Source: Azolla caroliniana
Lineage: Eukaryota > Plantae > Polypodiophyta
Length of the DNA: 64,000 nt
NCBI GenBank assembly: GCA_043228905.1
Contig: JBHGNT010000014.1
Coordinates: forward strand, 15,252,001-15,316,000
Reading direction: 5' to 3'
Position numbers and translations under genes: made by a program. Positions 2,825 to 64,000 of this stretch are shown here, one piece after another. Within the stretch, counting starts at the first letter, position 1, and each line of letters begins with the position of its first letter. Under the pieces are notes generated by a model. That model ran no database searches and had not been told where the DNA came from. It saw nothing but the letters and a program-made list of their open reading frames with translations.

Positions 2825-2876
2825 CCTCTCTCTCTCGCTCAAATTAATTTCTTGTTGTTGGGTGCCCCCCCCCCAG

Positions 2877-10343: not shown

Positions 10344-12317
10344 TTATATCATTTGGCAACTTAAAGAATTTTCGGTATCCTCATGGAAGCCAGAACCAGT
10401 GTAGATATTGGCCATACAAGCATAAGCTGCAGTGTTATTAGTATCTAATTGGATTGCTTGAACAAAAGCCAGTTTCCCTAGCCTAACATCCCACCATTTC
10501 TGGCATGCACCTAACAAAGCACCCATTATTGGTGGATAATGATCCGATGATGGTAGTTTCTTGATAATTACAACTGCTTTCTCCAGCTGCCCCGATCGAC
10601 CATAAAGATCAACCATACAAGTGTGGTGTTCTAAGCTTTGCATAACACCATAGCTCATGCTCATATTAACATACACCATCTCACCTTCATCAACTAGACC
10701 TGAATGACTGCATGCATTAAGCACACAAACAAGAGAGAATGCATTAGGGGAGAATCCCTCTTCTTGCATCTCTTGGAAACAGTTTAGTGCTTGCTCACCT
10801 AGGCCTTGGTCAGCATACCCCGATATTAATGAAGACCAGGAGACTACATCTCGAACACAAAGCTCATCATGAACTTGTTGCGCTTTTGAGATCATGCCAC
10901 ATCTAGCGTACATATCCACCAATGCGGTGCCAAGGATTCCATCTTTCTCTAGCAATCCCTTTCTAATGATCTCATTGTGAATTATTCCACCCTTGTGAAT
11001 ATCTCCCATAGAGCCACATGCCTTCAAGATACATGTGAAAGTTATAGCATTAGGAGTGATGCCCGCCTTAACGATTTGCTGAAAACAATGGAGTGCTTCC
11101 TCATCCTGCCCTTGTTGAGTGTAACCTGAGATCAATGCATTCCATGACACTATATTCTGACTAGGAAGGTCAAGAAGAACTCTATGTGCTTTCTCTGAAG
11201 CACCACATTTGGCATACATATCCACCAATGAATTTCCGACCTCAATATCTTTCTCAAGTAATCCTTTACTCACAACCTCATCGTGAATAACCATTCCTTT
11301 CTCGAATGCACGAGTGCTTCCACATGCCTTCAAGATGCAAGTGAATGTGATGGCATTCGGAGAGAGACCCTCCCTTTTCATTTGTTCAAAGCTCTTCAGT
11401 GCTTCCTCACATTGCCCTTGTTGAGCATAACCACATATTAATGCATTCCATGATATGACATTCCGAACAAGAAGCTTTTCAAAGACTTCCCGAGCTCTTG
11501 CAAGAGCGCCACATTTCACGTACATGTCCACAATAGCTGTACCGAGAACGACATCTTTCTCGAGCATAAAACCATTTCGGATGATCTCATCATGGATTTG
11601 CTTTCCCTTCTCCAATTCTCCTAATGTCCCGCAAGCTTTCACGATGCTGATAAATGTGACATTATCTGGAGAAATATGCTCCTTCTGCATTTTCTCAAAG
11701 CATTTCAATGCACTCTCACCCTGCCCTTGTTGGGCATATCTTGATATCAATGTATTCCACGAGATCACATCTCGGATGATAAGGTCTTCAAGGACTTTCT
11801 CTGCTTTCTCAAGCTTACCACATCTAGCGTACATATCCACCAAAATGGTTCCGAGGACAACATCTTTCTGAAGAAGACCCATGTCAAGAACTTCTCGATG
11901 AATCTCTTCACCTTTCTTTATTGATCCAATCATGCTACATGCTTTCAAAATGCTACCAAATGTGAATGCATCAGGAGAAATACCTTCATCTTGCATCATT
12001 TCAAAGCATTTCAATGCATCTTTTCCGTAGCCATGTTGAGTATAAGCAGAAATCAATGCATTCCAAGCTTTCACATTCCGAACAGGAAGCTCTTCAAGCA
12101 CTTTCTTTGCTTGATCAAGAGCACCACATCTAGCATACATAGCTATTAAAGTGCTCCCAAGGATTGGGTTTCTTCTGAGAAGGCCCAACTTGAGAAGATT
12201 TCCATGGATTATAGTGCCTTTAGGAAGGTCTTTATGGATGGTACAGGCCTTGAGTGACGCCACAACAGCACTGTAGTCTGTGTTCGTGTTTGCCATGGCT
12301 AATGTTTTGCTTGCCAT
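10344..12317 (-). CDS. PLS-class pentatricopeptide repeat protein with E extension, no DYW; putative organellar RNA editing factor
   Basis: 657-aa intronless ORF with repeating P-L-S triplets (LVDMYARCG..A..V; SWNALISGYAQQG..AL.CF..M..EG.SP; TFTCILKACGS). It ends HHTCMVDLYGRSG...GALLGAC..W..V.LGK.AF...I.LD..N.AAY..MANIY (E domain). Confidence 0.95.
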   Translation of the reverse strand: MASKTLAMANTNTDYSAVVASLKACTIHKDLPKGTIIHGNLLKLGLLRRNPILGSTLIAMYARCGALDQAKKVLEELPVRNVKAWNALISAYTQHGYGKDALKCFEMMQDEGISPDAFTFGSILKACSMIGSIKKGEEIHREVLDMGLLQKDVVLGTILVDMYARCGKLEKAEKVLEDLIIRDVISWNTLISRYAQQGQGESALKCFEKMQKEHISPDNVTFISIVKACGTLGELEKGKQIHDEIIRNGFMLEKDVVLGTAIVDMYVKCGALARAREVFEKLLVRNVISWNALICGYAQQGQCEEALKSFEQMKREGLSPNAITFTCILKACGSTRAFEKGMVIHDEVVSKGLLEKDIEVGNSLVDMYAKCGASEKAHRVLLDLPSQNIVSWNALISGYTQQGQDEEALHCFQQIVKAGITPNAITFTCILKACGSMGDIHKGGIIHNEIIRKGLLEKDGILGTALVDMYARCGMISKAQQVHDELCVRDVVSWSSLISGYADQGLGEQALNCFQEMQEEGFSPNAFSLVCVLNACSHSGLVDEGEMVYVNMSMSYGVMQSLEHHTCMVDLYGRSGQLEKAVVIIKKLPSSDHYPPIMGALLGACQKWWDVRLGKLAFVQAIQLDTNNTAAYACMANIYTGSGFHEDTENSLSCQMI

Positions 12318-12416
12318 TCCAATCCTTGTCTTTGTTCATGTCTAATGTAGTCTTTATCCATCACAATTCTTCTTGGTGCAATGTCTAATCTCTAAACTCT
12401 TCCTGGCACAGAACTT

Positions 12417-14711: not shown

Positions 14712-17700
14712 TTATTGCGCACTAGTATTTGCTTCTTGCTTGTTGAACTGCTCAAGAAGGCTAGTTGCCTTTCGACGAGCTCTTGCTGTACCAGAGTGAG
14801 AAAGCTCCATGATGGGTTCCTCTACACCAAGTTCTAATGCTGTTATCAAATGGGTTGGATTGGTATGGCTCAATGCTAGAAGAACTGCTGCCGCATTCTC
14901 TTTATTCCGAGGTGAACTACTCTTTATTAAATCCACCAACGCTGGTACCGCACGAGCATTCCCAATGGCTACTCTGCCTTCCTGATGGGTTGCTAGGATT
15001 GCAAGGATAGCTAATGCTTCATCCACCATTCCTGCATTAGAATCCACTAACAATGCCATTAATGGTTCAACAACCCCGGCTCTTATAGCTCTTGGTTTGT
15101 TCCCTTGGTAAATAGATAAATTAAACAACGCAGTGGCAGCATCTTTTCTTCCTCTTGGATTTCCATCTCGAAGCAAGTCCACTAGAGCAGGTATAGCACC
15201 AGAGACGGCCCCTATGGTTACCTTGTTTTCGTCTACCACAGAGAGACTAAAGAGAGTTGCAGCCGCATTTTCCCTTGCTTCCATACTTCCATGTCTCAAA
15301 ACCTCAACAATTGGAACAATGGCACCACTTTGCACAATAGCCCCTTTGTTAGCTTCATGAATGGATAAATTCAGAAGAGCTGTGACTGCATGCTCTTGTG
15401 TTCGGGAATCTTCGGTAGAAAGGAGAATCACTAGATGTGGGATAGCACCAGCTTCAGCAATACACACTCTATTCTCATTATTCTGTTTAGCAAGCGATCT
15501 TAATTCTCCTGCTGCTGCCCTCTGCAAATCTATCTGTCCACTACACAGATGTTGAATTAAGACATATATAGCATTCCTTTCTTTTGAAGATACCTCAGCC
15601 CGATTATGGTTCCCAGACCCGCTAAAACAAGACCTTTTGGGAACTTCAATCCCATTTGCTTCACACCATTGTGCAATGAGACTACGAAGCACGTAGTTTG
15701 GTGTTAAGGCTGTATGTGCAAGGACTTGTCTCGTCTTCGGACAAGTCTTATGGCCTTCCAACCATCTTTGAATGCTTGCCTTCTCATATGTCTGCGGGAA
15801 AATATGGATTGTCAGAAATGGAGACGCAAGATCAAACAATGCAAGATAAAAGACCCGGATGACAAACCTGTCCAGTAGCAACAATGACTGGATCTTTCAT
15901 CAGTTCTAGAGTGATAGGACATCGGAAATCGTTTGGCACAACAGGTGAACCAGGTTTTTCAGGGCAAGCTAAAGCAAGTGCCTCCAGATCCAGAGCTTCT
16001 GCTTCTGTATTTGGCAGTTCAACAAGCATTCTCAACTTTTTTAGTAAGACAGACATTTGCTCTAGGTTGTCATCCACTTCGGAACCTCTCTCTTTGATCA
16101 TACGTTGTAATGCTCGAGCTTCAGCTTTAAGCTCAGGAAGTGTTTTTAGCTGAAGTTTTTCAGCAACCCTTTGCAATGCAGCTGCATCAGAAATCTTCTC
16201 ATCCCTTTTAGACAGCACTAGCATCACATCCATTAGGAGTTCTACATCTTGACTATCTGCCCTTGCTTTCGCTCGTTTGATTTGAGTATGCACAAGTTCA
16301 ATCTACAAACAAACGAAATAACGTGAGACATTTCTTTAGAGCCACGCATGGCTGTCAGATCTTTTATGGATCTTTAGAATGAAATCAAGTTACCTGCTCT
16401 CTAACTTCGTCAGAGACTGTCAGAACATCCCAAGGCATAATATTGAAGGCTTTGTCCATATCTTCAGCAACAGCATGGAATTTGCTCACAATAGCTTCAT
16501 TCTCCAGTACCTAATCATAACAAAAGGTGTCACAAGGAGTAGAATTAAGTCATGGAAAGTGTTTTAAGAGCAGTCCATATTTTTCTTGAAGCAAGAAAGG
16601 TGTTCTTCTGGTTCTAATAATTACTATATTAATTTGGGGAAAATTAGAACGGTTAATCTGAGAGTGCTGTTGAAGTAATGAAGTAATGTTGAAGTAATGT
16701 TGAAGTGCGGTTAATCTGAGAGCGCTGAATATGTTGAAGTAATGTAAGCATGTCTGTGTTTAGACTCTGAAGACTGGGTCAAAGGGAGACCAGCGCTCAG
16801 TTTCCAGAAGAGCAACATGGCCATCAACCATTAGGCATCCAACATCAAACTAAAAAATATGCTAAACATGCTTTTGTCAGTAGAATTTTTATTTCCTATC
16901 ACCCTAGGGTGTTTTCATAGGGAGGTCATCAACACCCTATAATGACATACATATGTCTAAATTTTACACTTCAAAACAGGTGACCATGGTGTATATATTA
17001 GTAGTGTTGTTCAAATATGGAGCATATCTGGGGCTTTATCTTCAAATGTTTGCAAAAATCCTGGTTCACTGCTACCACACGGTACGGAGAATGGTGCAAC
17101 TCTCTGTAGCACTGTTTTATAAACTGCAATCCTTGTGCATATTTCTCAGGATTATTGCATTGATTTCAAGAGCATGATGCATCTCAGGCCAAATTCCGAA
17201 ACATTACAAGTAACCACAGTGCATATATCCCTTCAAATCCATGAGAATGGTAAAAAAAACTCGAGGTTAGTGGTCGGAAAATATTGAAAGGACACAGTGA
17301 ATATATCTCAGGAATTAGTCTTCATCAACATGTGTACCATGACCTAGCATATGAAACAATAATGAGCTGATATACATGTGCCAAGATGCTTGGGGTTTCA
17401 GTTAACTTATTGAGGGCATGGTGCTTCCATGGCAGACCTGGCGATATTGATCCTAGAGGGCAGGCTGTGATGATTAATAACTGACGAACAGTCCCTCTGA
17501 GATTTGCAACTATGTCCTTGTTTCTAATTCCTTGCGATCTGTAACATCCTAAGCTTTAATATTCAAACAATGGGATATGATGATGCCAACATGGCATATC
17601 TCAAGCTTAGGGTCTTCTGAGATCGGTAGCTCAATGGTATTTCATCACTGATGTGATTGTACAAAATTTACCTATCATGTATGAGAGTATGCTGTAGGAT

Positions 17701-26878: not shown

Positions 26879-27289
26879 CGATGTTCAAGAACTTTACCAA
26901 TGAATGTTGCAATCAAGAGTGCACATTGTGGTTGTGAGAGAAATTCGTGCAAGGATTGGGCTTGGTCGAAGAGATGTAAAAAAACATGGTCGAATATGAT
27001 CAAAGGCAGAGCATTGTATCAAAGTGTGATACTCAGACTCGTGAACTTGTTTAGGGCAAAGTGTGCATAACCGACCACTCTCATCACTTGTGCCCCAACA
27101 CCCTGTCTCACATCGCAATGCATGTGAGTTAAGTCACATGGAAGCAATGGTTCGAATGGCAGATAACGGGATGGGCTCTAGCATGTATCGATGTGTACGG
27201 TTTCCCCGTTCCGCAAAGAATATGGTTTTGTAGTTAGGTGCAACATGTGTAGTATAATGTGTGAAGCGAGAGCCTCCACATTTGTCCCA
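26770..27289 (-). mobile_element. 5'-truncated LINE: RT C-terminal CCHC region, 3' UTR and (CTAT)n tail
   Basis: The minus strand encodes SHALRCETGCW...RLCTLC....ESEYHTLIQCSAFDHIR, the SHxLxxETGR / CxxC..ExExH....C motif of LINE ORF2 termini. It ends in a TATC tandem tail. Confidence 0.75.
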
Positions 27290-27391
27290 TGTCATGATAC
27301 ATTAGAGAGAGAGAGAGAGCTCAGTTGGTAAGGTTGCCCAATGGAGACCAGGTGGTCATGGGTTCAACCCCTACATTCCACAGTCACGACA
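27290..27391 (-). mobile_element. Miniature, internally deleted solo LTR containing a tRNA-like module
   Basis: Termini are TGTCATGA...TCACGACA. The internal AGCTCAGTTGG...GGTTCAACCC closely matches the module in LTR 50408-50782. Flanks TCCCA/TCTAA are only a weak TSD. Confidence 0.6.
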
Positions 27392-27564
27392 TCTAATGAA
27401 ATAGAGATATATATGAAGTATATAATAGAGAGGTGAGGAAATTGGGTTCTAGTGGTAAGCTAATTACGAGAGAGAGAGTGTGTGTGTGTGTGGAAAAATT
27501 GGACTTGATGTGGCATCTAGTGAAATAGAGATATATATGAAGTATATAATGGAGAGGTGAGGAA

Positions 27565-27627
27565 TTTGGGTTTCGAACCCAAGACACAATGCTTTTAGTG
27601 TTATCGACTTACCACTAGGGTAAGCTA
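27565..27627 (-). other. tRNA-derived (SINE-head-like) A/B-box module
   Basis: The minus strand reads TAGCTTACCCTAGTGGTAAG...TCTTGGGTTCGAAACCC. It lies in one of two tandem copies (27391-27513, 27514-27745); the first copy lacks the module core. Confidence 0.5.
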
Positions 27628-27631
27628 ATTG

Positions 27632-27704
<73 letters not shown>

Positions 27705-39041: not shown

Positions 39042-39422
39042 TGTCATGAAGACATGCATTTTGGCTTACAAGGATTCAAACCCACAACTTCTTGGTCTAT
39101 GTGTTAAACCTTTAACCATTATAATAATATATATGATATGTAATTATACTAATTATATTATTAATTATTACAATATATCTAGAGTATTCTAGGACATTCT
39201 AGATTATTTCATGATTATCTTAAATATTATAAATGCCTACAATATTCTAGAACATTCTAAAATACTCCATAAGGACCTATAAATAGGCGTCCATATATAA
39301 TTACATTCATCACAACTCATTCAGTTCAACACCAATCTTTAACCCCTTAAACTACTTTTGTAACCCTTATTCTCTTATAATATAAGCTCATTTCCATTTT
39401 CAATCATCTAATCTACGTAATA
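39042..39422 (+). mobile_element. Tcn1-like solo LTR with an antisense tRNA-like module
   Basis: Starts TGTCATGA like LTR 62706. Contains GGATTCAAACC (reverse B-box) at 39072, TTCTAG motifs, TATAAATA at 39278 and CAGTTCAACACCAATC. The right end (CGTAATA) is approximate. Confidence 0.6.
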
Positions 39423-39733: not shown

Positions 39734-40458
39734 TGTCGTGAAGATTTTCGGCAACAGTGTGAAAATTGTGTGCAACGAACGAAATCGAAAAGGTGCAATG
39801 TGCACGCGTGAAAGGGGTGAAAGCCACATGCATATGCTAGCATGTTGTAAATAGGACTAAAATGAGAATCGTAAAAGGAAAGGTAGATGTAAAATTAAAC
39901 ATGTGCACGTGTGATGTGCGCTCAATTGTAAATATAAAAATAAGACTAAAGCCTAGTAACATTTAAGTGCATACATAGGGGTGAAAGCAAGGTTTGAACC
40001 TTGCACCTCCAAGCTAGGAGACAAATTAACTTACCACTAAAGCCACTATTGAGTGCTTTAGAATTTGTATATTTTCTTTTCATATTCAGTATTTTGCAGG
40101 AAGCAAACATATAGAAACTGTGGGCACAAAACCATGGTTTTAGCCCGTGTTTTTTGCATGGAGAGACCTATAAAAGCCTATAGTTGGGCTTGTGTAAGGG
40201 GGGGCAAGTGATGTAAGTAAAAAAGAAACTTTTAATCAAAGATATGAGTTATCCTAATGGTGATGTATCTTGTCTCGTAAAACTAAAGTCAAGGGTTCAA
40301 TCTCTCTCTCAATCTCTCTCTCTCTCTCTCTCTCTCTCTTCATCATCCATCTATCTTCAATACTTTCTCGCTTACATTGCTAAAAATATCGAATCCTTCC
40401 AGTCTAGGACCCCGACGGTCCCGCTTCATTTCGCGAACACGCGAGGATTTCCTCAACA
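39734..40458 (+). mobile_element. Solo LTR (TGTCGCG..CGCGACA family), copy 1
   Basis: Starts TGTCGTGAAGATTTTCG and ends GGATTTCCTCAACA. TATAAAAG near 40168; antisense tRNA-like module at 39987-40046. Flanked by ATGT and ACGT. Confidence 0.7.
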
Positions 40459-41239: not shown

Positions 41240-41346
41240 ACATGTTGGAAGGAGTCAATACGAGGAACATCCCATTCATATTCTTGATGTACCTCAGATA
41301 TTTACATTTATCTCAACTTTTGTTTTGATTTTTAAGCTTAGTTAGT

Positions 41347-41746
41347 TAGCTAATTAGCTATCTCAAAATATGATCATAGGTAAATAGTGATTGACAATAG
41401 CTAACTTAGCTATTATCAACTAATTAGCTACCACAATAACTAATTAGCTATCTCAGAATATGACCATAGCTAATTAGCTACCTCAGAATATGACCATAGC
41501 TAATTAACTACCACAATAGCTAATTAGCTATCTCAGAATATGACCATAGCTAACTAGCTACTGGTAATAGCTAAATAGTGTTTGACAATAGCTAACTAAC
41601 TATTGGTAATAGCTAAATAGCGTTTGACGATAGCTAAATTAGATATTATTAGCTAATTAGCTACCACAATAGTTAATTAGCTATCTCAGAATATGACCAT
41701 AGCTAATTAGCTACCACAATAGCTAATTAGCTACCTCAAAATATGA

Positions 41747-41749
<3 letters not shown>
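41347..41749. repeat. Minisatellite built on the palindrome TAGCTAATTAGCTA
   Basis: More than ten perfect or degenerate palindromic cores are joined by reused linkers (TCTCAGAATATGACCA, CCACAA, TTGGTAA, GTTTGACAA). A (CA)n run follows. Confidence 0.9.
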
Positions 41750-41782
<33 letters not shown>

Positions 41783-50407: not shown

Positions 50408-50782
50408 TGTCACGAACAAGTATAATAGAGCAAAGCAAAGACAAGACTGGAACACAAGAGAGAGGAAAAGAACAAGAACTGAACTTATAGAATCTGTAAC
50501 TGTTGTTGTTCACCTTGATTAGAATCAAGGTGCACCTAAGTATTTATACAAGAAGGTAGGGCTATGTAAGCCAACTAGAAATAGAGTATGCATGAGGATG
50601 CATGCAATAGAGAATGCATGAGAATGTGTGCAAGCTAGAAACTTCCAATGTTTAATCTACACTACATGAAGTTGGATTTAATATAAGGATGCATGTGTAG
50701 CTCAATTGGTAGGGTTCCTCAATAGAGACCATGATGTCTTGGGTTCAATCCCTACCTTCCTCTGTGGCATATGTCTATAACA
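50408..50782 (-). repeat. 3' LTR of the Gypsy, with an antisense tRNA-like module
   Basis: Reads TGTTA..TGACA on the minus strand. A-box TAGCTCAATTGG at 50698 and B-box GGTTCAATCC at 50742 on the plus strand. Hairpin CACCTTGATT-AG-AATCAAGGTG next to the TATA. Confidence 0.8.
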
Positions 50783-51810
50783 TTATCCTTCCTCTAAGGT
50801 CGTCGGCCTCCTAACACCCACGGCCGGTTTATGAGAGTATCGTTGATGAAAAGCGCGAATTGCCTCTGGCGCATTTTGTAAATGTGTAACTGGTTCCCAT
50901 GTGGCATCCGAAAGAGGGTAACCTTTCCATAAGACCAAGTATTGAAATCTTCAGCGACGTAAGCGGGAGTCGGGAATACGGTGAACCTCGTACTCCTCAC
51001 CTGTCAATATTCCAGGGCGGCGACGGCGGAGGTTGTTGTCCCGGAATGCGAGAAGGATGGTAGGGTTCGAGGAGAGAGACGTGGAAAACATTGTGAAGCC
51101 GAAATGTGGGGGGAAACACTAACCGGAAGGCGATTGCGTTAATGCGCTCGAGGATACGGAAGGGGCCTAGCTTTCTGTAGTTGAGCTTCGCGCAGGGACG
51201 AGTGGTTGTGATGTGGCAACGTAGAAGCCAAACCATGTTACCGACTGCGAAGGTCGGTCAGTGTGAGCTTTATATTGTTTGCCAACGGCACGGAGCTCGA
51301 GGGAGAGGTCACGATGGACATCCTGTAAGGTGTGGGCATGCCTCTCGGTCGATGGATTGACGGAAGTCTCCGAAATGGAAATGCTGAAACGAGGGTGGAA
51401 ACCGTAGTTTGCAAAGAATGGGGAAACCTTATTTGAGGCATGGATACTATTAATGTAGGTAAATTCCGCCATGGCAAGGAACTCCACCCAATCATCTTAT
51501 TGGTAGCTGACTATACACTAGAGGTATTGTTCGAGGATTTAGTTGACTCTTTCAGTTTGGCCATCAGTTTGAGGGTGGTGCGCGGTAGACAAGTTCACAG
51601 AAGTGTCGAATGTTTGTAGAAGTCGGCACCAAAAGTGGGAGATAAATTGAGGACCTCGATCAGAAGTGACATCCTTAGGGAAGCCATGTAATCAGACGAC
51701 ATTTTTCAGAAAAAGGTAAGTTGTCTCCTCCCCCGAAATGGTTTTTGAACATGGGACAAAGTGAGCCATCTTTGAAAACCGATCGATGACCACTAGCACC
51801 GTGTCATGGA

Positions 51811-54800
51811 TGTTGGGTAAGGGCCGCCTTCGAATGCGGAACTTAAGCAAAACTCTTCTATATGATGATCATGAAGTGGTGTATGTAGACAGAAAGCTCA
51901 ATGGCAGATGGAAACATTAGACAAGATGTTGCAGAGAACGCAAGAGAGAGTGAGAGAGGAAGGCACAACAAACTAGTTGTATATTAGGCAATAGAGCAAA
52001 AAGCAACAACAACAACTAGGTTACAAAGTCAGTTTATATAGTAACTAACTTAGGGCAACTGCCCTTCTTAGTATTTACATAAATAGTCTAAGCCTAGTGT
52101 GTACAAAAGGAGACAATGTGAATACGTCCATTAGACACCCGTATTCAACACTCCCTCGTAATGGGCGTATACATATTAAAATTATACTTGAAATGAGTAT
52201 ATATAATATAGATTGGTACAAGGCTTTGAGCAGCCGAAGTCTGGTGTCCTTAAGGGATGGCAATTGTTCAATTTAATCAAACCGATTCTCCATTACGCCC
52301 ATGTGTTGTCTAAGAGATTGAAATCGATCTACCAAGATACACTTGGTCATTGCGTTCGCGATATTATCGGCTGTAGATATCTTCACAAGGCCAAATTTCC
52401 CTTAAATGACGCAATCCCGAATGAAGTGATATCGAACGTCGATGTGCTTGGAGGCGTTATGTTGAACCGGATTTTTCGACAAAGCGACAACACCCTGACT
52501 GTCGCTATAAATAATCGGAGTCGAACTGATTTTAGCTGCTCAAAATGTGTAGGCCAGCCGGCTGAGCCATAAGGCCTCTTTCGCCGCATCGGAAGCAGCT
52601 ACATATTCGGCTTCGGTCATTAATGTGGTTGTGTATTCCTGAAGTTTGGATTTTCATGAGATGACCCCGTTTCTAGGTTTGAAACAATATCCGGTTGTTG
52701 ATTTTCAGCTATCTATGCAGCCCGCGAAGTTAGAGTCGGTATACTTGACTACGCCTGAGCTATCGTTCGGTTTGAACAAAATACCAAGGTCTTTTGTGCC
52801 CGCCAGATATCTGAACACATGCTTAACTGCATTCCAATGCGATTGACCGGTGTTATGCATAAATCTACTGACGACTCCAACGACGTGAGCTATATCAGGC
52901 CGTGTCGCGACCATCGCGTACATGAGGGAGCCGACTGCCGGTGCATACGGTACCGACTTCATAATTTCCCCCTCTGGACCGGATGTCAGACAGTCTCGAC
53001 AAGACAACCGAGAATTAATAGGGAGCGGGGTAGAGGTAGATTTCGCTGATTGCATGTTGAAGCGTTCGAGGACACGTCCAATGTAGTCGGATTGAGACAA
53101 AAACAATTGTTGTCGATTACGATTCCGACGTATCTTCATGCCAAGAATGTGGCATGCCGGACCGAGATCCTTCATGGCAAACTTCAACCATAGTTGTCGA
53201 ACGAGTTCAGCTAGTTCACCTGCATGGCGTCTAGAAATTAGCATGTCATCCACGTAGATGATGAGAAAGATGGGCGATCCATCTCGAGTTGTTTTTGTGA
53301 AGAGACAGTGGTCCTCATCACTCTTTTAGAAGCCGATCGATTGGATGAAGTCATCGAACTTCTTATACCACTGTCGTGGCGCTTGTTTCAGGATGGAGAG
53401 ACTCTTCCTGAGTCGGTAGACTAGATTTTCTTGGCCGGGTACCACAAAGCCTTTCGGTTGCTCCATATAAATTTCCTCCTCAAGATCACCATGGAGGAAA
53501 GCCATTTTGACATCTAGCTGAATCAACTCCAAGTTTTCGACTGCCACTACGCCGAGCATAAAGCGAAGGGCTGTCATTTTCACCACTGGTGAAAAGATTT
53601 TGTCGAAATTGACGCCGTGTTCTTGTCGAAAACCCTTGGCTACTAATCTGGCCTTGAACTTTGGGCTTGCCGAATCAGAGGTCTCCTTAATTCGATAGAC
53701 CCACTTGCACGGAAGAGCACATCGATTGTTCAGGAGTTCGACCAAGTCCCAAGTGTTGTTCATACGAATAGAGTTCATTTCTGACTCCATTGCCAGATGC
53801 CAGGTGGCTGATTCGGCTGATGCCGAAGCTTCTTTGTATGACGTCGGATCTCCGACGTCCATGAAGAAGATACCAGGAGAGTATCTCTTTGGGGGTTGTG
53901 ACAATCTCTCAGATCTTTGAGGTATGACTGGACTGGTCGCATCGGGTGTCGTGGTTGGATAATCCAAAGCTGAATCGTTCAACTGTGTCGAGTCAGAATT
54001 CTCAGAGTCGGTGTTAGGGGGTTCAGCTACCCGTGAAGCTGACCATGTGTTGTGCGCTAGACTTTCCTGAAGAGTTGGCATATCAGAAAAAATTACCCTT
54101 CGGACTTCGATCGGTTTTTCGACTGATTGATTCATAGCCGACTCATTGAACACTACGTTCGAACTTCGAACGATTTGTCTGTGTTCGGGGTTCCAGAGTC
54201 GGTATCCCATTTCACCATCTGATCCATAACCAAGGAAAATACATTTCCTGGACTGTGGTGCAAGTTTGCGGCGATCATCTTTCGGGATGAGGGCATATGC
54301 CTCACATCCGAAAATCCTCAGCTTATCGTAATTCGGCTTACTGCTGGTCCATAATTCTTGAGGTATACGAAGTCCTAGAGGCCTACTCGGCTACATAATG
54401 ATTATGTGTACTGCGGTAAGTAGGGCCTCTGCCCAGAAGCCATCCAACAGTCCGGAGTGTTGGAGCATGGAAACTATCCTTTCTTGAATTGTCTGATTCA
54501 TTCGTTTGGCAATTCCATTCTGCTCTGGACTATGTGGTGCCGTAAATTCGGCAAAATTTGAAGAATTCCTCTAATTTGAACTCTCCCCCATTATTGGTCC
54601 GAAAACATTTCAGTTTTCGGCCGGAATGATTCTCTACCACAACGAACCAATCGGAGAAGATCGAGAAGACATGATCTTTGGTTCTAATTGGATAAGCCCA
54701 TACCTTCCTAGTCGAGTCGTCAATGTGAGCGTAACGTGCAGTCTATACAATGAATGTATCTTCGGTCCTCTAGCAAGCAGGAGGTTTCCCCTGTGGAGTG

Positions 54801-56976
54801 TCCACCCTCCTGATGAGAAGCCGCCACGAATGTCTTCTTCATCCAATTGTCCGATTGAGATCAGTGGTCGTGAGAGCTCAGGTACATGTTAGACATTGCA
54901 TAGTACCAATGTAGAACCACCGCGCAAGGTGGAGCTCTACTATGCCGATTCCAATTATATCGCAGTGTTGCGAATTTCCTACTCGAACTGAGTCGGAATG
55001 TCGGGCCATGTATTGCCGAAATTGGGATCGATGAGGAGTTACATGAAATGACGCACCCGAATCTAAGAGTCATGTGCTTGATTCTTCAGTCGTAAGTAGA
55101 ACTTCTGATTCGACTCGATTTTTGATTGAGAGTATGTTCGGGTTGTTTGATAGTACGTCAGCTGAAGAACTGATGTAGTTGATCTCCTCGTGCCGGCCAC
55201 TCTTCTTGTCGGCTTGCTGAGCCTTATCGTTTTTGGTTTTGAGAGCACGGCAATCGGCTTTGATGTGTTCGGGTTTCTTGTAGTAGTTGCATACTCGATT
55301 ATCCCGTGACTGGTTCCGTCTTCGCTGATTGTTCGGCTGCCGTGAAGAGTCTCTTCCATGACTGTTCGGTCGGTCAGTCGAACTTTGTACTACGTAAGCG
55401 TCATTGGCCGAATCGTTCGCAAACGATTTTCTCCGAGCTGCTTCAGTCAGAATAGCACTCGTGACTGAGGAGTACATGACTGCCGTAGTTGACGCATTGT
55501 ACACGGTGGTGACGAAAGTTTCCCATGACGAAGGGAGACTACTCATAAGCAACATTGCTTTTAGTTCATCCTCGATGATCGTCCCTTGAGCTGCAATTTG
55601 GGAGCTTAGACTTTCGTACTCTTTTAAATGTGTCTGGACCGAATCGGATTCCTTCATCCGAAGGTTGTAGAGACGCTGAATCAAGAATATCTTCGTGGCG
55701 ACGACTTTCTTTTCGTAAGTGTCTGATAGTGTCTTCCATAGTTGGAAGGCTGTCGTACACGATTGCACTGTGAAATATACAGATTCTGATAGGTGCATTC
55801 AAATTGTGGCGCGAATGATTCTGTCCAGCTTCTGCCACTCGATTGGTTTGTATCCTTCTGGGGGATCTTCATTCTCAATGGGGTCAATCTGGCCCTTGAC
55901 TAACAAGTAGTCTTGCATTTGCTCCTTCCAGAAGTTGAAGTTCGATCCATCGAACTTTCGTAGACTCATCTCTAACGAGCCAGCTATTGAAGCCGTGTGT
56001 GTTGGTATAATAAACTTTGTCCTGAGTTAGCTACAAACTGTGGTGGAGTGTGACAACCTAGCCCACTCGATGTCGTTCTAGCCGAAGTTGAACACAAGTC
56101 GTGTTGATTACGAAGAATTGTGAATCCTGTTCGGCGTGACTACAATCAACTGACTTAGTCGAGTTGAACCAGGATTTGATGATTCGATTTCTCCGAAATC
56201 TCCCAACACCGATTCTATGCAATACTCTAGGCCGATCTTGTTTCGGTTGACTGCAACGATGAGAGGGACGGAACCAACCGGTCCTCCCGAATGTCATCTA
56301 GCCGAGTGAAACACGGATTGGGGTTGCCCCTGAAGTCATGTTTGCTTCAGGTGACTATGACGAGTAGGAGAGTAGCGTCAAAGGACCTATTCGATTTCCG
56401 CCTAGTCGATTGAAGCAATGATTTGGCCTAATCAAGACAGAAGTCCCATTCCGAACGACTACAACCACAAAACAAAGTGAGATCTAGAACAATGAAGTGC
56501 TGACTTCGTCACATTTCTCTTTGCAAGAGCAATCTCGTGACTAGCTAAGATCTTCAGAATACACGAAGAAGAGTTTTCAGAGGCTAAGATAGAAGGCGAC
56601 AACAAGCTCGAACAAAAACCGGGCTCTGATACCAGATGTTGGGTAAGGGCCGCTTTCGAATGCGGAACTTAAGCGAAACCCTTCTATATGATGATCATGA
56701 AGTGGTGTATGTAGACAGAAAGCTCAATGGCAGATGGAAACATTAGACAAGATGCTGCAAAGCACGCAAGAGAGAGTGAGAGAGGAAGGCACAACAAACT
56801 AGTTGTATATTAGGCAATAGAGCAAAAAGCAACAACAACAACTAGGTTACAAAGTCAGTTTATATACTGACTAACTTAGGGCAACTGCCCTTCTTAATAT
56901 TTACATAAATAGTCTAAGCCTAGTGTGTACAAAAGGATACAATGTGAATACGTCCATTAGACACCCGTATTCAACA
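51811..56976 (-). mobile_element. Full-length Copia (internally deleted and decayed) nested in the Gypsy integrase
   Basis: 340-bp LTRs at 51811-52150 and 56637-56976 (about 10 substitutions). PBS is the reverse of TGGTATCAGAGC at 56623-56634; PPT at 52151-52162; TSD ATGGA/ATGGT. Removal restores the Gypsy LPRVGDH-DTVLVVIDRFSK. Confidence 0.95.
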
Positions 56977-59865
56977 ATGGTCACCGACTCGAGGAAGGTC
57001 AGTGATAAAGTCCATGGAGAGAGATGCCCAAGGTCGACTAGGAATTGGAAGTGGGTGTAGAAGGTCGTATGGACGATGGTGAGCTGCTTTGGAGTGAGCA
57101 CAAACGTCACATGTTTTGATAAAGTCTTTGACCAATTTCCAAGGTTGGGGCCACCAAAACCCCCGAGACAGCAACGCTAGTGTTTTCGCAACCCCAAAGT
57201 GTTCGACGAGAGGATCATCTTGGCAAGTTTGTAGTACTCGGATGCGACATGTGCCAGCTGGTACGTAAAGGAGGTGATTACGATAGAGTAGCCCATCCTG
57301 AGTTGTAAAGTGACTGAGATCCGAACTTTGCATTTCTTGGGATGGGTTGTTGAGGCGCACCATGATGTTAGTAGCGAAAGAGTCCGTCGTGGTTGCTTGG
57401 GCGATCTCGTTGAGCAAGGAATCATCATGCAACATATAGGTTGCGAGCATGTGGAGTTGATCGGGTTGCAATAAACAATGCGATTGTTGAGAATATGCGT
57501 CGTCACTTGGGCGTAGTGCAAAGTCGGGTCGCTGAGAGAGAGCATCTGCTTTCCCATGTTGAATGCCGGGTCGAAACAAGATTTTGAATTTGCAGTCGGC
57601 GAGAAAAAATGACCAGTGAGCCTGCCTCCGATTCAACGTACGAGTGGTCGTGAAGTAGATGAGATTCTTATGGTTGGTTAGCACCTGAATACGATGTTGG
57701 GCAGCCAGATAGGGCCGCCATTTGGCAAAAGCCAAGATGATAGCTGCAAGCTCCTTGTCGTAGAACGATAAATTGATTTCCGAGGCTGTAAACTTTTGAG
57801 AGTAGAAGGCGACTGGATGTAGGGTGCCATCGTCGTCAGGTTGAGACAAGACCACACCTATGACAAAGTCGGAGGCATCGGTTTCAACTTGGAAAGGGCG
57901 GGTGGGGTCGGGGTGGACTAACACAGGGGCGTAGAGAAAAGCAACTTTGAGGGACATTAAAAGCATTGTGTGCCGTGGGGGTCCAAAGAAATGGAGTATC
58001 TTTCTAGGTAAGCTAGATGAGAGGTTGGACTAGGGAAGAAAACCCGTCTATAAATCGTCTATAGAAATTTGCAAAACCAAGAAACGATTGTACCTCTTTC
58101 AACCGAGTCGGGAGAGGCAAATCAGTGATTGCCGCTACCTTGCATTCATCCATTGTGATCCCAGTAGGTGAGATCATGTACCCTAGGAATTCGACAGAGG
58201 TCTTATCGAATTCACATTTCTAACTTTTGGCAAAGAGCCCATATTCCCGGAATTTGGTGAGAACCAGTCGGACATGGTGTGTGTGCTCCTCCCAGTTGGA
58301 AGAAAAAACTAGGATGTCGTCAAGGTAGATGACCACGAAATGGTCAAGGTGCTCTCGAAAAATATTGTTCATCATGTGCTGGAAGACGGCCGGAGTGTTA
58401 GTAAGGCCGAATGGCATCACTTTGTACTCGAAATGTCCATAGCGCGTCCGAAAGGCCGTTTTCCACTCATCCCCAGGCTTGATGCGCACCAAATTGTAGG
58501 CGCCTCGAAAGTTGATTTTGGAGAAGATATATCCAGTTCGGAGTCGATCGGGGAGCGTTGGAATTAAGGGCAGGGGGTAATGATTACGCACCGTAACTTT
58601 GTTGACACCCCGATAATCCGCACATAAGCGTAAGGAGCCATCCTTCTTTTTGACAAATAAGATTGGTGCACTGGTTGGTGATTTGGAGGGTTGAATGAAG
58701 CCCTTCGCGAGATTCTCAGCCATATATGTGCGGAGAGCCTCAAGTTCGGGTTCAGATAACCCATAGATAGGTCCAAATGGGGGATGCTTGCCAGCTTGGA
58801 GTTCGATTGGGAAATCATAGGGGCGATGAGCCGGTAACCGATCGCATTCCACTTTTCGAAGATGTTGGAAAAGTTGCTATATCAGACGGGTAAATTGTTG
58901 ACAAGAACGGTGACGTCCCCCGACACAATGGCCAGTGTAGCGACCAGACCGGACTCGATCGTAATGGAATCAAGAGAGTGTCACGACCTAACAGGAATTG
59001 GCCTTACTGGAAAAGTGATGGAGCGGTTACACCAATCCACCGTTCGATTGTGTGTTTCCAACCAAGATAGCCCCAACACAATCGGATGTCGAGGGGTTTC
59101 AATGAGGTAGAACGTGAGTTCCTCCTAGTGCACCCCAACTTGAAGTATGGGATAGTGGCTTTGGTAATGGCTCCCGAAGAGAGAACCCGACCGTCGATTG
59201 CTTCAACGGATATGGGTTGTGATTTGCGGACGCTGGGGATATTATGTGCACGGACAAATGATGTATCGATAAAGCAAGTAGATGCTCCGGAGTCGAGCAA
59301 GGCATGAGAATTTATTGAAGTCGAACCAAAACAAAGACTTACTTGCAAAGAAAACCCTCCTAATGGCGGAACAAACTTTTTGTAACATGGAGAAGGTGAG
59401 TAACAGGAAGCGTCCATCGGCATGGCTCCTACTGCAACATGACTTGGTCATTTTCCTGTTGTCGAGGAACCTCCACAAGACGTGCACTATGGAATTGGTG
59501 CCGTGGGCCCCACACCGGGCAGTGGCGGATGACATGGCCAGGGTTGCCACAATAGAGACAGATTCCATTGTCCCGACGATGTTGGCGTTGGGCTTCAGTT
59601 AGTGGTTGGAACTGAGTGTGGTCGATCTCCATCGAGGTATGGAAATCGACCTCCGTCGTGGTATGGTTATCACTGGATGATGGTAAGGTTGGCGTGGGAG
59701 ACAAGTAGGGCCTAGTGATTGATGCATTGTGGGAAGAAGCCTGAGACCTGCGAGTCCCCCGTTCTCCTTGATGAAGTTCGAAGAGACGATTGTCAGACTG
59801 GACAACTTGGGAGATTACTGGAGACAACGATGTGGGCTCCAGGAAGTTTAAGAGAAGGGTCCAAT

Positions 59866-62269
59866 TTTGGTTCAGTCCTCTCCGACGATTAGCATGTCTC
59901 CTACATACAACAAGAGTATTAGGAAGTCTCCTCCGTCGAACTTCTTCACATACAACCTAGTTGGCCTGCGTCTTGTGGTATCCTTGGTTAGTCATGAAGG
60001 AGTCGAACTTTCGGTACCATTACCGGGGAGTTTTCTTTAGTCCGTATAAGCCCTTCTTCCACCGGCACACCAAGTTCTCCTTCCCTTTCTTGATGAATCC
60101 TTTCGGCTATTGCATGTTGATCTATTCTTTTTGGTCACCATGCAAGAACACCATCTTGACATCTAGTTGCTCTACCTCGAGGTCCATGCTTGCCGCTATG
60201 CTCAACATTGTCCGGATGGATATCATCAAAGATCTCATCGAAATCCACTCCTTTCTTCTGCTGGAAGCCCTTCACCACAATGTGGGCTTTGTACCTCGGT
60301 GGATTTCCAGTGTCTCCTGGTTTCAACTTGTACACCCACTTGTTCCAGAGCGCTCTCTTTCCTTTCGACAGCTCCGTCAATTCATATGTGTGGTTCTCAT
60401 GCAGGGAATCCATCTCATCTTGCATGGCACTTAACCACTTGTGGTTGTGGGTGTCTTTCTTTGCTTCTTCGAAACTTTTTGACCACCCCTCATTTGTCAA
60501 TAAAACATGCTCTCCATCTGGAAATTTCTCTCTTGTAGAGGGTATCAACGTCCTTGATTTTCGGTCACCGGTTCTTCAGTTAGTTCTTCATCCGAATCCG
60601 ATTGGGGGGCTTGTCCAGTTCCGACATTTGATCCTTCTTCGAATGGTTAGTTTCTTTGTCCAAGTCCGGCCGGTTCCCTATGGTCTTTGGCTGACATCCG
60701 ACTTCTGACCAGATGGATCTTTGTATCTTCCAACCGATCTCTATCGGTTGATCCAAAGGAGGCTTTCTTCTTCTCTGGTTCCTAGTCGGCAATGGTCTTG
60801 TCTTCCATGAAGACTATGTCCCTACTCCGAATCACTTTCTTTTCTACTAGGCACCACATATGATAGCCAAACTCATCATCATTGTACCCAATAAATATGC
60901 ATGGACGAGATTTCAGGTCTAATTTCCCCCGTTTTTCCTTTGCAATGTGCACATAAGCGAGGCAACTGAAAACTTTTAGATGCCGGTAAGAAACATCTTT
61001 ACCGGTCCATACTCTCTGTGGTGTGTCTCTGTCCAAGGGTGTTGAGGGTGATTTGTTTATCACGTACGTCGTTGTCATCAGCGGCTCAGCCCAAAACGTC
61101 TTGGACAACTTGGCATGTGCAAGCATACTCCAGACTCTCTCCATTACGGTCCGGTTCATTCTTTCAGCCAACCCGTTAAGCTCTAGTGTCTTTGGCATAG
61201 TGTATTCAAGCCGGATTCCTTATGACCGACAGTACTCCTCGAACTGCCCCCGATATTCACTGCCATTGTCCGCTAAGTCTACTTTCAGCTTCCGGCCGAT
61301 TTCTCTTTCTACTCTTGCATGGAACTCCTTGATGACGGGCAATACCTGGTCCTTCGTCTTCAGTGTGGAAACCCACAACTTCGGTCATCTATGAATGTCA
61401 CGAAGTATTGCGATCCGGCATGTGACTTTGTGTCCACAGACCATACGTCGGTATGCATGAGTTCAAGCGGTGCCTTACGTCTCATCGGTACTCTCGACTG
61501 GGAAGAGGTTTTGTTCTGCTTGCCGACCAAGCAATTAGTGCACTTCTCAAGTTGCACGTCCTTCACCTCCAGAATGAGGTTATTGTCGGCCAATCTTCTC
61601 ATCCCTTTCTGGCTCATGTGACACAACCTTTTGTGCCACAGCTCACCGGCAATGTTGGATGCCACGTTCACTTCCCCCTAGCATATTTAGGCATGCATTA
61701 GGTACAATGTGTTGATCTTCTAGGCTTGGGCCACGATTAGGCTTCCTCTGCAAAACTTCATCGTGCCGTTTCGGATGCTACCGGTGTAGTCTTCATCATC
61801 CAGCCAACCAGTGTATATCAGGTTCAATTGAACCTCCGAAACATGGTGCACTTCTCTTAACAATAGTTTGCACCCGGTTGATGTAGTCAAACACACATCT
61901 CCTATGCAAACAATTCGGCATGCTCCTTCATTCCCCATCCTTACACGACCGTGATCTCCAACTCTATAGGATGAGAAGCACTTCCAATCAGGGGTTAGAT
62001 GGAATGACGCTCCAGAGTCGACCGCCCATGTTGATTCATCGCTGACAAGGTGTAGCTCACTCTCCTTGGTGATGAGTAGCAGTTCCTCTTCGCTTGTCGC
62101 GATTTCCGATGTTCCTCTCCTTTCTGAAATCTTCTTCGGTTCTGGACCGTTGGCTCGCCCTTTGGCTTTCTGGAAGTGTCGGCAATTCTTCTAGAAGTGC
62201 CTTGACTTTCTGCAACAAAAGCAAGTGGGCCTCCCCCTTGACTTCGACCTCTTCTGTGACTTCTCTCGG
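59866..62269 (-). mobile_element. Copia internal fragment (same family as 44263): end of gag to start of RT
   Basis: Motifs WHKRLCHMSQ, HTDVW, NGLAERMNRT and NKWVYKLKPGDTGNPPRYKA. Truncated just after the YV(D)DML motif. Confidence 0.88.
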
Positions 62270-62705
62270 TGTCGCGGAAATCCGCGCGTGCGGGTTGGAA
62301 AAGGCGAGACCACATGGGTCTTGTACTAAGGGATTTATGGATACCGGAAGGCCGATTTCTTTGGGTCCGGTTACACCAGCTATGGCACCAACCGGGATGA
62401 TTCCGGATGCGTTCCGGAAGCAACCGGATTAAAGAGAGGGAGAGAGAGCACATGCATGCACACCAGCTCTTCACACCCTCTTATATACAAGACGACGAGT
62501 CTCCGGACCGAAAGAGGAGACACGTCGTGACACAAAACGACTAAACACACACACACATCACAAGTGGATCCCGACAGGATGAAACCCAAAGACGCCGACA
62601 TAGACATATGCACACCGAAATTTTCTCATATATATTTACAAGGGACACAAGTTACAACACCGGTTTTGAGCCAGTCCAATACCAAACAGATACAACAGTT
62701 GTTTG
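62270..62705 (-). mobile_element. LTR 3' portion (family of 40463-41239), interrupted by the Gypsy at 62706
   Basis: The reverse complement ends GGATTTCCGCGACA and matches 41030-41239 (CCGGAATC..CCGGTT.GYGCCATAGC). Confidence 0.7.
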
Positions 62706-64000
62706 TGTCATGATATGGCAAGACTCGAACCCATGACCTTATGGCATATGGGTCGAGCTCTTAACCATCACACCATCTATTGTAATTCATAGGATATTAT
62801 TTTCATTTATGTTTTATTATAAGAAAGTAATGTATATTCCAGATTTCTCTGGAACATTCTAGAAGTTTCAGGATTACTCCTGACAAGTATAAAAGAAGGC
62901 ACTAGGCATTATGTTGAACCAAATTGGTTCAACGCCAGTCTTAAGCCTCGTAGCCGCTTTGTACTTATCTTTTCACATAATATATTAGCTGTTGTCATCA
63001 TCTTTCTCTCTCTCTCATCCTCGCTATCTCTCTCTCTCTCGTCTTCTCACTTCCTCTCTCGGGAATCTCACGCAGTCCCGTCTTCTTAGTACTAATAGTA
63101 CTTCCCTTCTTAGTACTAATTCCATCTCTGCTTTAGTACCATTCCTGACAGTTTGAACCAAATTTTCCTTTCCTCCAGCCTACTTGTCGTTCTCCCTCAT
63201 CCTCCTACCCTTTTCCCTATACTATGGCTACTATTAGTGCCCAAGAATATCAATATGTTTTCTTCGAGTTACAGTGCCTAAAAGAAAAGTTTGTTGCCCT
63301 GGAACAAGAAAACCAACGGTTGATAGGGGATCTGCAACAAATCGCTCTCGAAAAACAACAAACGCAACAACAACATGGGGAGTTAGCATTACGGGTACAA
63401 CAACTCGAAGCAGCGTTGCAACAACAAGGATCAAGTCCCCAAGGATTTCATAAAGAGCCCAAGATTGGACTTCCTGTGAAATTTGATGGAACGCGATCGC
63501 AATTTCGGGGATTCCTTAATCAGGTACGCTTAGTCATCCAGATGCATCCTTCCCGATATCCCACTGATGCATCTCGAGTCAGCCTAATAGGCACGTTACT
63601 TAGCGGCTCAGCCTTGGCATGGTTCGCTCCGCTTCTAGAAAAACAATCACCCTTGCTTAATAACTTTGATGATTTTATTGGTGAGTTTAAAGCCTGCTTT
63701 GGAGATACCGACAACATCAGGACGGCGATCAACAAGATCCGAAGATTGCGTCAAGGCGATCGTCCAGCCTCTGCCTACGCGGCGGATTTCCGTCTACTCA
63801 CCTCAGATATTCCCTAGGATGATCAGGCCCTCATGGAGCAGTTTTGCTACGGCTTGCGCAATGATGTCAAAGATCTGCTTTTAACCTTCCCCGAAGAACC
63901 AAAGTCTCTTACGGAGGCAATCAGTCGAGTGGTCCGATGCGACAACCGCCTTTTCGAACGGCGTTCGGAGCGTCAGTTACAAATACCACGCTCTCGGCCG
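62706..64000 (+). mobile_element. Ty3/Gypsy Tcn1/sushi-like element: 5' LTR and gag, running off the right edge
   Basis: LTR at 62706-63150 (TGTCA..TGACA), TATAAAA at 62888. No TGG-type tRNA PBS. Gag starts at 63224. Confidence 0.9.
63224..64000 (+). pseudogene. gag: Gypsy Gag (PEG10/sushi-like capsid), one premature stop
   Basis: Coiled-coil N-terminus, then EPKIGLPVKFDGTRSQFRGFLNQ...LLSGSALAW...LRQG. The TAG at 63815 replaces a likely Trp, and the frame continues (DDQALMEQF.YGLRNDVKD). Confidence 0.85.

What the first reader, a model, noticed from the sequence alone, without database searches (positions are those of the whole stretch)
62716..62776. Tcn1-like Gypsy LTRs carry an antisense tRNA-like (Pol III A/B-box) module at the start of U3
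Seen: immediately inside the LTR 5' end, antisense to the element, is TGGTGTGATGGTTAAG..GACCCATATGCC..AGGTCATGGGTTCGAGTC, with an A-box, tRNA-like spacing and a perfect B-box. The same position and orientation recur in the Gypsy 3' LTR (A-box 50698, B-box 50742), the solo LTR at 39042 (39072-39120) and the mini-LTR at 27290. Four separate LTRs with divergent modules argue for a built-in LTR component rather than chance SINE insertions. Known: Cassandra TRIMs embed 5S rDNA Pol III promoters in their LTRs, and B-box/TFIIIC sites act as chromatin barriers in yeasts. Inference: this may be a tRNA analogue of Cassandra in an autonomous chromovirus, providing outward Pol III transcription, insulation from silencing, or a self-made integration target. 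I do not know of a description of this, but I cannot search the literature.
Basis: partly seen in the sequence, partly recalled or inferred. Interest (0 to 1): 0.85.

Follow-up and report, generated by a model that had tools for sequence, protein, structure and literature searches.

The report
Backward tRNA promoter inside retrotransposon LTRs
An abundant protein-coding jumping gene, probably of a fern, carries a backward-facing relic of a tRNA-gene promoter at the outer edge of its terminal repeats; the relic was likely captured from free repeats and may shield or open the element's own promoter, but no activity has been shown.

Summary
The module is real. At 62775-62721 (minus strand), 15 bases inside a 445-bp Tcn1-type LTR (62706-63150), lie A and B boxes with exact tRNA spacing. 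It is part of a highly repeated LTR family in four sequencing runs, with no tail or duplication of its own. The same position and orientation recur in two more window LTRs and in 2 of 5 plant-type Tcn1 LTRs from elsewhere; three lack it, so it is not universal. Boxes are more alike (60-68%) than the spacer (38%); no cloverleaf is kept. This points to capture of SINE-like heads, probably more than once. The closest known kind is Helenus (2024), non-coding elements whose tRNA-like module faces inward near the LTR's 3' end; here it sits in coding chromoviruses, mirror-wise, facing out. I favour a retained TFIIIC/Pol III site at the LTR's outer border (about 0.5); neutral hitch-hiking is the main rival (0.3). 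No transcript or binding was shown.

The parts
62706..63150 (+). LTR1: 5' LTR of a Tcn1-type Gypsy element, 445 bp, TGTCA...TGACA
   Evidence: contig depth rises more than 100-fold at its first bases in 4 of 4 runs
62721..62775 (-). tRNA-type A/B-box module, antisense, B box ending 15 bases from the LTR terminus
62764..62775 (-). A box (one mismatch to the recalled consensus; the other letter at 62769, seen in 47-69% of depth, removes it)
62721..62731 (-). B box (core GTTCRANNC intact)
62720..62762 (.). imperfect inverted repeat: this module folds as a rod hairpin, not a cloverleaf
   Evidence: z = -3.45; duplex p = 0.001; not significant in most other modules
62852..62869 (.). heat-shock-element-like GAA/TTC array in U3 (consensus recalled)
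62888..62893 (+). TATA box of the LTR's Pol II promoter (predicted)
62924..62932 (+). predicted self-primer at the start of R, complementary to 63153-63161
63153..63161 (+). self-priming site just after the LTR (no tRNA primer site)
   Evidence: Tcn1 trait in PMC6317226
63224..64000 (+). Gypsy gag, with a stop at 63815-63817, cut by the window end; 64% identical over 197 aa to the gag of L006
50408..50782 (-). LTR2: 3' LTR of a second Tcn1-type element, directly after its polypurine tract
50698..50752 (+). antisense A/B-box module of LTR2, 80% identical to the free repeat at 27318
50783..59870 (-). decayed body of element 2 (chromodomain about 50825-50998, integrase, RNase H, RT, protease, end of gag), interrupted by a Copia at 51809-56976; 5' LTR lost
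   Evidence: Chromo PF00385, E 1.3e-16
39042..39410 (+). L3: truncated LTR of the LTR1/L006 type (3' limit approximate)
   Evidence: local alignment to the L006 LTR over positions 66-341
39072..39126 (-). antisense A/B-box module of L3
27318..27384 (+).

Best explanation
Coding Tcn1-type chromoviruses, probably of a fern, carry at the outer end of U3 an antisense tRNA-type A/B-box module that was likely captured from free tRNA-headed repeats and is likely kept as a TFIIIC/Pol III binding site. Shown: position, strand, exact tRNA spacing, family-wide presence for LTR1, better conservation of boxes than spacer, loss of the cloverleaf, and a free repeat 80% identical to one module. Inferred: capture happened at least twice, or once with losses and replacement. 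Predicted mechanism: U3 is ordered terminus - module - AT-rich stretch - stress-element array - TATA - self-primer. The element's RNA is made by Pol II from the TATA; the module faces the other way, so TFIIIC/TFIIIB bound there (with or without short outward transcripts) would sit between the flanking chromatin and the Pol II enhancer, acting as a border or nucleosome-free anchor for an element whose chromodomain integrase is thought to favour heterochromatin (recalled). My odds by step: built-in for LTR1 0.9; derived from tRNA-headed repeats 0.8; kept by selection 0.55; border/opening role specifically 0.35.
For: Family-wide: 2,841-4,737 contigs laid per run in 4 runs (3 organism labels, 3 studies); 9 of the 32 listed pieces start at 62704-62709 and run through the module into U3; share running on as unlike sequence 0-0.01. 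Recurrence: LTR2, L3; L006 is the top hit, 34-40 bits against 20-21 for the next, of a matrix built from window modules only over 998 kb. Nine modules align on tRNA numbering with at most one gap each; the invariant columns correspond to tRNA positions 16, 19, 21, 46, 47, 53-55 and 58 (numbering recalled). Mean identity among five LTR modules: A box 0.60, B box 0.68, spacer 0.38, flanks 0.24-0.29. Two variant A boxes seen in loose-end rows of the LTR1 family still fit the consensus with 0-1 mismatch (judged by eye). Sequence upstream of the A box is 69-91% A+T, as for a TFIIIB site. No cloverleaf: 48.1% paired against 47.9% shuffled, so what is kept is the DNA motif. Donor. Tree: module-bearing win_el2 and L004 group apart from module-less L005 (support 0.995), and L006 groups with module-less L008 (0.937). 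Precedent for SINE borders: PMC8136502 abstract.
Against: The module is dispensable for the clade: absent from L005, L008 and SM-Tcn1 (read by eye). Three of the five modules in the conservation count were first found by looking for boxes, which inflates it; n is 5. L004 scores only 17-18 bits, near the top of the background, and fails my strict scan. The within-family test is incomplete: only 40 of 102 variant rows and 24 of 818 loose-end rows were shown. Whether the LTR2 module is family-wide was not tested. Free modules show the same box-over-spacer pattern, so inheritance from different SINE donors could explain it without selection in the LTR. No terminator lies inside the LTR after the B box, and the first T4 beyond it is not at a conserved place (+42, +92, +992 in three 3' LTRs). 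TFIIIC border function is known from yeasts and mammals (recalled), not shown in ferns.
Confidence: 0.5

Rival explanations
1. Neutral passenger: SINE-type heads were captured into master LTRs and spread with them. Position and strand reflect how capture happens (for example a template switch early in plus-strand synthesis, which would give antisense sequence just after the polypurine tract; my inference) or where U3 tolerates extra DNA; box similarity is inherited from the donors.
For: Free donors are abundant; LTR2's module is a truncated copy of one; three related LTRs do without it; free modules keep boxes and spacing just as well; L004's A box is poor.
Against: LTR1, L3 and L006 share one LTR lineage yet their spacers have diverged to 36-57% identity while boxes and spacing stayed, which neutral decay of one captured head would not favour; variant A boxes within the LTR1 family stay in consensus.
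Confidence: 0.3
2. The product is the point: Pol III makes an outward antisense RNA (from the 3' LTR across the polypurine tract into the chromodomain region, and in LTR1 a hairpin) that regulates the element or yields small RNAs, as foamy-virus LTRs do.
For: LTR1 module folds as a stable rod (z -3.45; p 0.001); LTR2 marginal (p 0.047); none of the listed family variants falls in the hairpin arms, three fall in its loop region (partial list). Pol III miRNA genes in foamy-virus LTRs: PMC3993851 passages.
Against: The rod is not conserved: p 0.13-0.55 in L3, L004, L006; consensus energy -0.96 kcal/mol; pair counts no better than shuffles. No shared terminator position.
Confidence: 0.12
3. The U3 end is an inverted Helenus-type TRIM LTR end, swapped in by recombination, or it can seed reverse-oriented Helenus-like TRIMs.
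For: Read on the other strand the geometry matches Helenus: A box, B box, then 15-35 bases to a terminal CA, against 27 bases in Helenus-1_SMo (counted by eye) and similar in fungal families.
Against: The only candidate mini-LTR in the window is not an LTR; no such TRIM was found; the free repeat S1 shows variable 5' flanks and no TG...CA ends.
Confidence: 0.06
4. Each module is an independent SINE insertion into a single LTR copy, or the module serves as a self-made integration target.
For: Ty3, Skipper-2 and TRE elements target Pol III genes (PMC5911963 passages).
Against: LTR1 module is family-wide with no tail or flanking duplication; none of the three window LTRs is inserted beside an A/B module.
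Confidence: 0.02

Closest known systems
Helenus (TRIMp3), Kojima 2024, PMC10886601
   Same: tRNA-like sequence in the LTR, boxes conserved, cloverleaf lost, proposed origin by SINE insertion into an LTR; one family in the lycophyte Selaginella; B box 20-30 bases from an LTR terminus.
   Different: Helenus is short and non-coding, and in the supplement sequences I read the module is sense and near the LTR's 3' end, so it can drive the element's own RNA. Here the elements encode gag-pol, keep a TATA promoter, and the module is antisense at the 5' end. Kojima analysed only elements under 1000 bp, while noting that 'not a few' Repbase LTRs have tRNA-like parts, so longer cases may be sitting unexamined in Repbase.
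Cassandra TRIM (as described in PMC10886601)
   Same: Pol III internal promoter of small-RNA origin inside a plant LTR.
   Different: 5S-derived, non-autonomous, drives the element's own transcript; not the case here.
Tcn1 clade chromoviruses (PMC2864245, PMC6317226)
   Same: Chromodomain integrase, self-priming site, non-seed-plant host; LTR1 shares the R-start signature and self-primer layout visible in SM-Tcn1.
   Different: No tRNA-like LTR module appears in the passages I read; the SM-Tcn1 LTR lacks it.
Foamy-virus LTR Pol III miRNA genes (PMC3993851)
   Same: A/B-box Pol III units inside the LTR of an autonomous retroelement.
   Different: Those have terminators and proven miRNA products; here no terminator in the LTR and no RNA shown.
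tRNA-derived SINEs as chromatin borders (mouse B2, PMC8136502)
   Same: tRNA-type head at the edge of a regulatory domain.
   Different: B2 copies are free insertions and the abstract names CTCF; here the head travels as part of an LTR.

Membership tests
Tcn1 clade chromovirus | Ty3/Gypsy order PR-RT-RH-INT with a C-terminal chromodomain | tested here: met
   element 2; for element 1 only gag is in the window, its nearest relative L006 has the full pol
Tcn1 clade chromovirus | self-priming site instead of a tRNA primer site | tested here: met
   9-base complement in LTR1, 12 in L006, 11 in L005; trait from PMC6317226
Tcn1 clade chromovirus | RT/RH/INT phylogeny with named Tcn1 references | tested here: inconclusive
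   tree gives a well-supported clade next to fungal elements but holds no named Tcn1 reference; likeness to SM-Tcn1 was judged by eye
Tcn1 clade chromovirus | non-seed-plant host | tested here: inconclusive
   best named relative of a window gene is from Ceratopteris, 74%; one gene only
Helenus / TRIMp3 | tRNA-like sequence with conserved A and B boxes in the LTR | tested here: met
Helenus / TRIMp3 | short, non-coding element (TRIM) | tested here: not met
   gag and pol present
Helenus / TRIMp3 | promoter oriented to transcribe the element (sense) | tested here: not met
   antisense in 5 of 5 module-bearing LTRs; Helenus orientation read from supplement sequences
Cassandra | 5S rRNA-derived LTR segment | tested here: not met
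   no 5S match in Rfam; motifs are tRNA-type
tRNA gene | cloverleaf fold | tested here: not met
independent SINE insertion (LTR1 module) | own tail and target-site duplication; free copies with variable flanks | tested here: not met
   (only 24 of 818 loose-end rows shown)
tRNA-derived SINE (repeat S1 at 27318) | tRNA-type head, variable 5' flanks, body and simple-sequence tail, target-site duplications | tested here: inconclusive
   head, variable flank and AT-rich continuation seen; true 3' end and duplications not resolved; a second, convergent module follows in the window
functional Pol III type-2 promoter | TFIIIC binding and Pol III transcription | not testable with these tools
   only contigs were available

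The most novel reading that the evidence does not exclude
Autonomous plant chromoviruses have repeatedly domesticated tRNA-SINE heads, always backward at the outer lip of U3, as a portable TFIIIC/Pol III border paired with a heat-shock enhancer, so that each new insertion into heterochromatin brings its own insulator; the same end, read in reverse, is a ready-made Helenus LTR and could be how Pol III-driven TRIMs are born.
Probability: 0.25. Interest if true: 0.85.

Novelty: new variant of a known kind. Interest (0 to 1): 0.58.

Why it matters
If the module is functional, it would be a case of a coding LTR retrotransposon carrying a Pol III-type element that it does not use to make its genome, and it offers a direct test of how chromodomain-targeted elements stay active in silent chromatin. 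It also gives a visible intermediate for the SINE-into-LTR origin proposed for Cassandra and Helenus, with a donor-like repeat and an LTR 80% alike in one window. At the least it means many B-box-like sites in this genome travel with an abundant LTR family. I found no description in ten literature searches (listings and abstract starts only, except the papers named in the full report); (Tcn1, moss, LTR, RNA polymerase III) gave 0 papers. Subscription papers and Repbase entries were not searchable.

Tried and rejected
No whole genome was held, so no genome-wide element set. ARAGORN and Rfam: no tRNA. Conserved cloverleaf rejected. Conserved rod fold across families rejected (structure chosen after seeing LTR1). 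'27290 mini-LTR / reverse TRIM' rejected. Pattern scan of viral contigs for tract + LTR start + B box: 0. Related loci: one search scanned 3 of 64 parts and kept 80 of 585 hits; most were distant (39-53% identity), fungal-like. Of 55 loci whose match reached the end of pol, 1 gave a strict module hit in the next 500 bases (L006) and L004 was read by eye; for most distant ones I did not locate the LTR start, so their blanks are weak. Whole-locus scans gave 4 weak background hits in 998 kb. L083 has a plant-type LTR whose start is cut off and was left out of the count. Expression: no RNA holder listed; the one RNA-guessed run laid (X23, on S1 only) is contigs and shows neither strand nor start. 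The gag comparison used a wrong frame and was redone; the first tree crashed and was replaced (FastTree supports only, alignment anchored on one protein). Earlier-findings look-ups by place, sequence and two word sets were empty. Five DOC supplements of PMC2864245 could not be read and may hold more Tcn1 LTR details.

Full report
Setting. The window is land-plant DNA: a PPR gene at 10344-12335 and a U-box/ARM gene at 14712-15896, whose best named relative is from the fern Ceratopteris at 74% (three unnamed transcripts are closer). The host is therefore probably a fern; this rests on one gene. The right third is a nest of Copia and Gypsy remains. No whole genome was held.

The observation. LTR1 runs 62706-63150 and is followed by gag (ATG 63224). 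On the minus strand an A box (62775-62764) and a B box (62731-62721) start 44 bases apart, the B box ending 15 bases from the LTR terminus. The box consensus strings I scanned with are recalled. A B-box core alone is not above chance (20 against 15.0), but A+B pairs are: 9 against 1.2 at spacing 30-61, and 8 of those 9... more exactly 8 against 0.05 at 43-44, a range fixed after seeing the hits (40 block-wise first-order shuffles). ARAGORN and Rfam see no tRNA.

What kind of element. The second element (minus strand, 50408 to about 59870) has protease, RT, RNase H, integrase and a chromodomain, a polypurine tract and a 3' LTR at 50408-50782. LTR1 has no tRNA primer site; the bases after it are complementary to the predicted start of R (9 bases; 12 in L006, 11 in L005). 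Neumann 2019 (PMC6317226, passages) gives self-priming as the Tcn1 trait among plant chromoviruses. The SM-Tcn1 record (PMC2864245 supplement S3, read whole) shows by eye the same R-start signature and self-primer layout as LTR1. My tree has no named Tcn1 reference, so 'Tcn1-type' rests on these features.

Is it built in? For LTR1, yes. Laying four DNA runs (three organism labels, three studies) on 62600-63300 gave 2,841-4,737 contigs each; depth jumps more than 100-fold at the LTR start and stays high through the module; 9 of the 32 listed pieces begin at 62704-62709 and run through the module into U3; 0-1% run on as unlike sequence. Depth here is no copy number, one run may be the source sample, and only contigs at least 80% alike are laid. 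Of the 40 variant rows shown (of 102), five lie in the module, none in the B box; the one at 62769 (47-69% of depth) improves the A box. Two loose-end rows show different A boxes that still fit the consensus.

Does it recur? In the window: LTR2 (50698-50752) and the truncated LTR at 39042 (39126-39072), both antisense, B box 30 bases from the terminus. Outside: relatives were fetched by protein similarity. Four plant-type loci show an LTR start. L006 has the module, and is the top hit of a matrix made from window modules alone (34-40 bits, next 20-21, over 998 kb). L004 has an intact B-box core and a poor A box at the expected place and strand, 17-18 bits, close to background. L005 and L008 lack it, as does SM-Tcn1 by eye. 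So 2 of 5. The hosts of these contigs are unknown. Distant fungal-like relatives gave no hit, with the caveat in Tried and rejected. In the tree, element 2 and L004 group apart from L005 (0.995) and L006 groups with L008 (0.937), so the module-bearers are not one clade. Element 1's gag is closest to L006 (64% over 197 aa).

What is conserved. Nine modules align on tRNA numbering with at most one gap each. Among the five LTR modules mean identity is 0.60 (A box), 0.67 (variable loop and T-stem start), 0.68 (B box), 0.38 (spacer), 0.24-0.29 (flanks). The cloverleaf is gone (48.1% paired, 47.9% shuffled). LTR1's module folds as a rod (z -3.45; p 0.001), LTR2's marginally, the others not. Three of the five were found by looking for boxes, so the contrast is inflated.

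The correction. The 'mini-LTR at 27290' is a junction of two repeats. Contigs covering 27262-27303 continue into other sequence; those covering 27318-27384 are equally abundant, have variable A- or AG-rich 5' flanks and continue past the supposed CA end into a shared AT-rich body. This free repeat, S1, matches the LTR2 module at 52 of 65 bases, including 74% in the spacer, whereas LTR2 and its relative L004 share 35% there while their R regions align well. S1 does not carry the LTR terminus, so capture from S1-like RNA or DNA into the LTR is the simpler direction (inference). Three further free A/B pairs lie in the window.

Mechanism. U3 reads: terminus, antisense module, AT-rich stretch (69-91% A+T), a stress-element array, TATA, self-primer. 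Heat-shock-element-like arrays occur in 4 of 5 module-bearing LTRs and 0 of 2 module-less loci tested; ONSEN is the known heat-responsive case (search listing only). The module cannot make the genomic RNA because it points away. No T-run lies between B box and terminus, and the first T4 beyond three 3' LTRs is at +42, +92 and +992, which argues against a defined RNA. I therefore favour a DNA-level role: TFIIIC/TFIIIB at the LTR's outer edge, bordering or opening the Pol II promoter of an element thought to insert in heterochromatin. The border role of tRNA genes in yeasts and the chromodomain's preference are recalled; the mouse B2 precedent is from an abstract (PMC8136502). This step is inferred (0.35); retention by selection 0.55; neutral hitch-hiking is the main rival (0.3).

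Comparison. Kojima 2024 (PMC10886601; parts 1-4 of 6 of the text; passages; supplement passages and part 3 of 11) describes Helenus, TRIMs with tRNA-like LTR modules, proposes SINE insertion as their origin, and expects the autonomous partners to use Pol II and share little LTR sequence. The present case meets the box criterion but fails non-coding and sense orientation; it is the mirror image. Foamy viruses have Pol III genes in their LTRs (PMC3993851, passages). Pol III targeting by Ty3 and Dictyostelium elements (PMC5911963, passages) is about insertion sites, not LTR content. Term searches inside PMC11656987 (0 hits), bioRxiv 10.64898/2026.03.01.708851 (passages) and PMC13437025 (passages) added nothing on Tcn1 LTRs. 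Ten library searches showed no description; Kojima's remark that many Repbase LTRs have tRNA-like parts means such cases may be known but unanalysed.

Verdict. A real, family-level feature, three of four examples holding; a new variant of a known kind (tRNA-type module in an LTR), unusual in being antisense, terminal and in coding elements, with a likely donor in view. Function unproven. Interest 0.58.

Noticed in passing
window 62852-62869, 39245; L004, L006, L083 LTRs: Tandem heat-shock-element-like GAA/TTC arrays in U3; 3 of the window's 5 such motifs lie in these LTRs. LTR2 and L005 have CATGCA (RY-like) repeats instead.
   Followed up: partly
window 27318-27640: The free repeat S1 is followed by an AT-rich body and a second, convergent A/B module (27622-27569), with part of the body duplicated (27390-27448 / 27514-27572). 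Possibly a double-headed element rather than a plain SINE.
   Followed up: partly
window 39990-40304: Two back-to-back A/B modules 206 bases apart, pointing away from each other, one followed by a CT microsatellite.
   Followed up: no
window 27262-27303: End of another abundant repeat that abuts S1 and supplies the false TG start.
   Followed up: partly
window 59870-62706: A truncated Copia lies head to head with LTR1, about 9 bases apart, and is fused at its other end to the gag of element 2, whose 5' LTR is lost.
   Followed up: partly
window 51809-56976: Complete-looking Copia with 342-bp LTRs 97% alike, nested in the integrase of element 2.
   Followed up: no
L005 and L006: Both contigs read internal - LTR - internal, as tandem or circularly assembled elements would.
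   Followed up: no
SM-Tcn1, PMC2864245 supplement S3: The paper reports no priming site, but by eye the bases after the 5' LTR are complementary to the start of R over about 14 bases, i.e. self-priming.
   Followed up: partly
window 41344-41750: AT-rich tandem and inverted repeat array.
   Followed up: no
L083-L158: Many Gypsy pol contigs sit in bacterial and archaeal genome bins, likely eukaryotic contamination.
   Followed up: no
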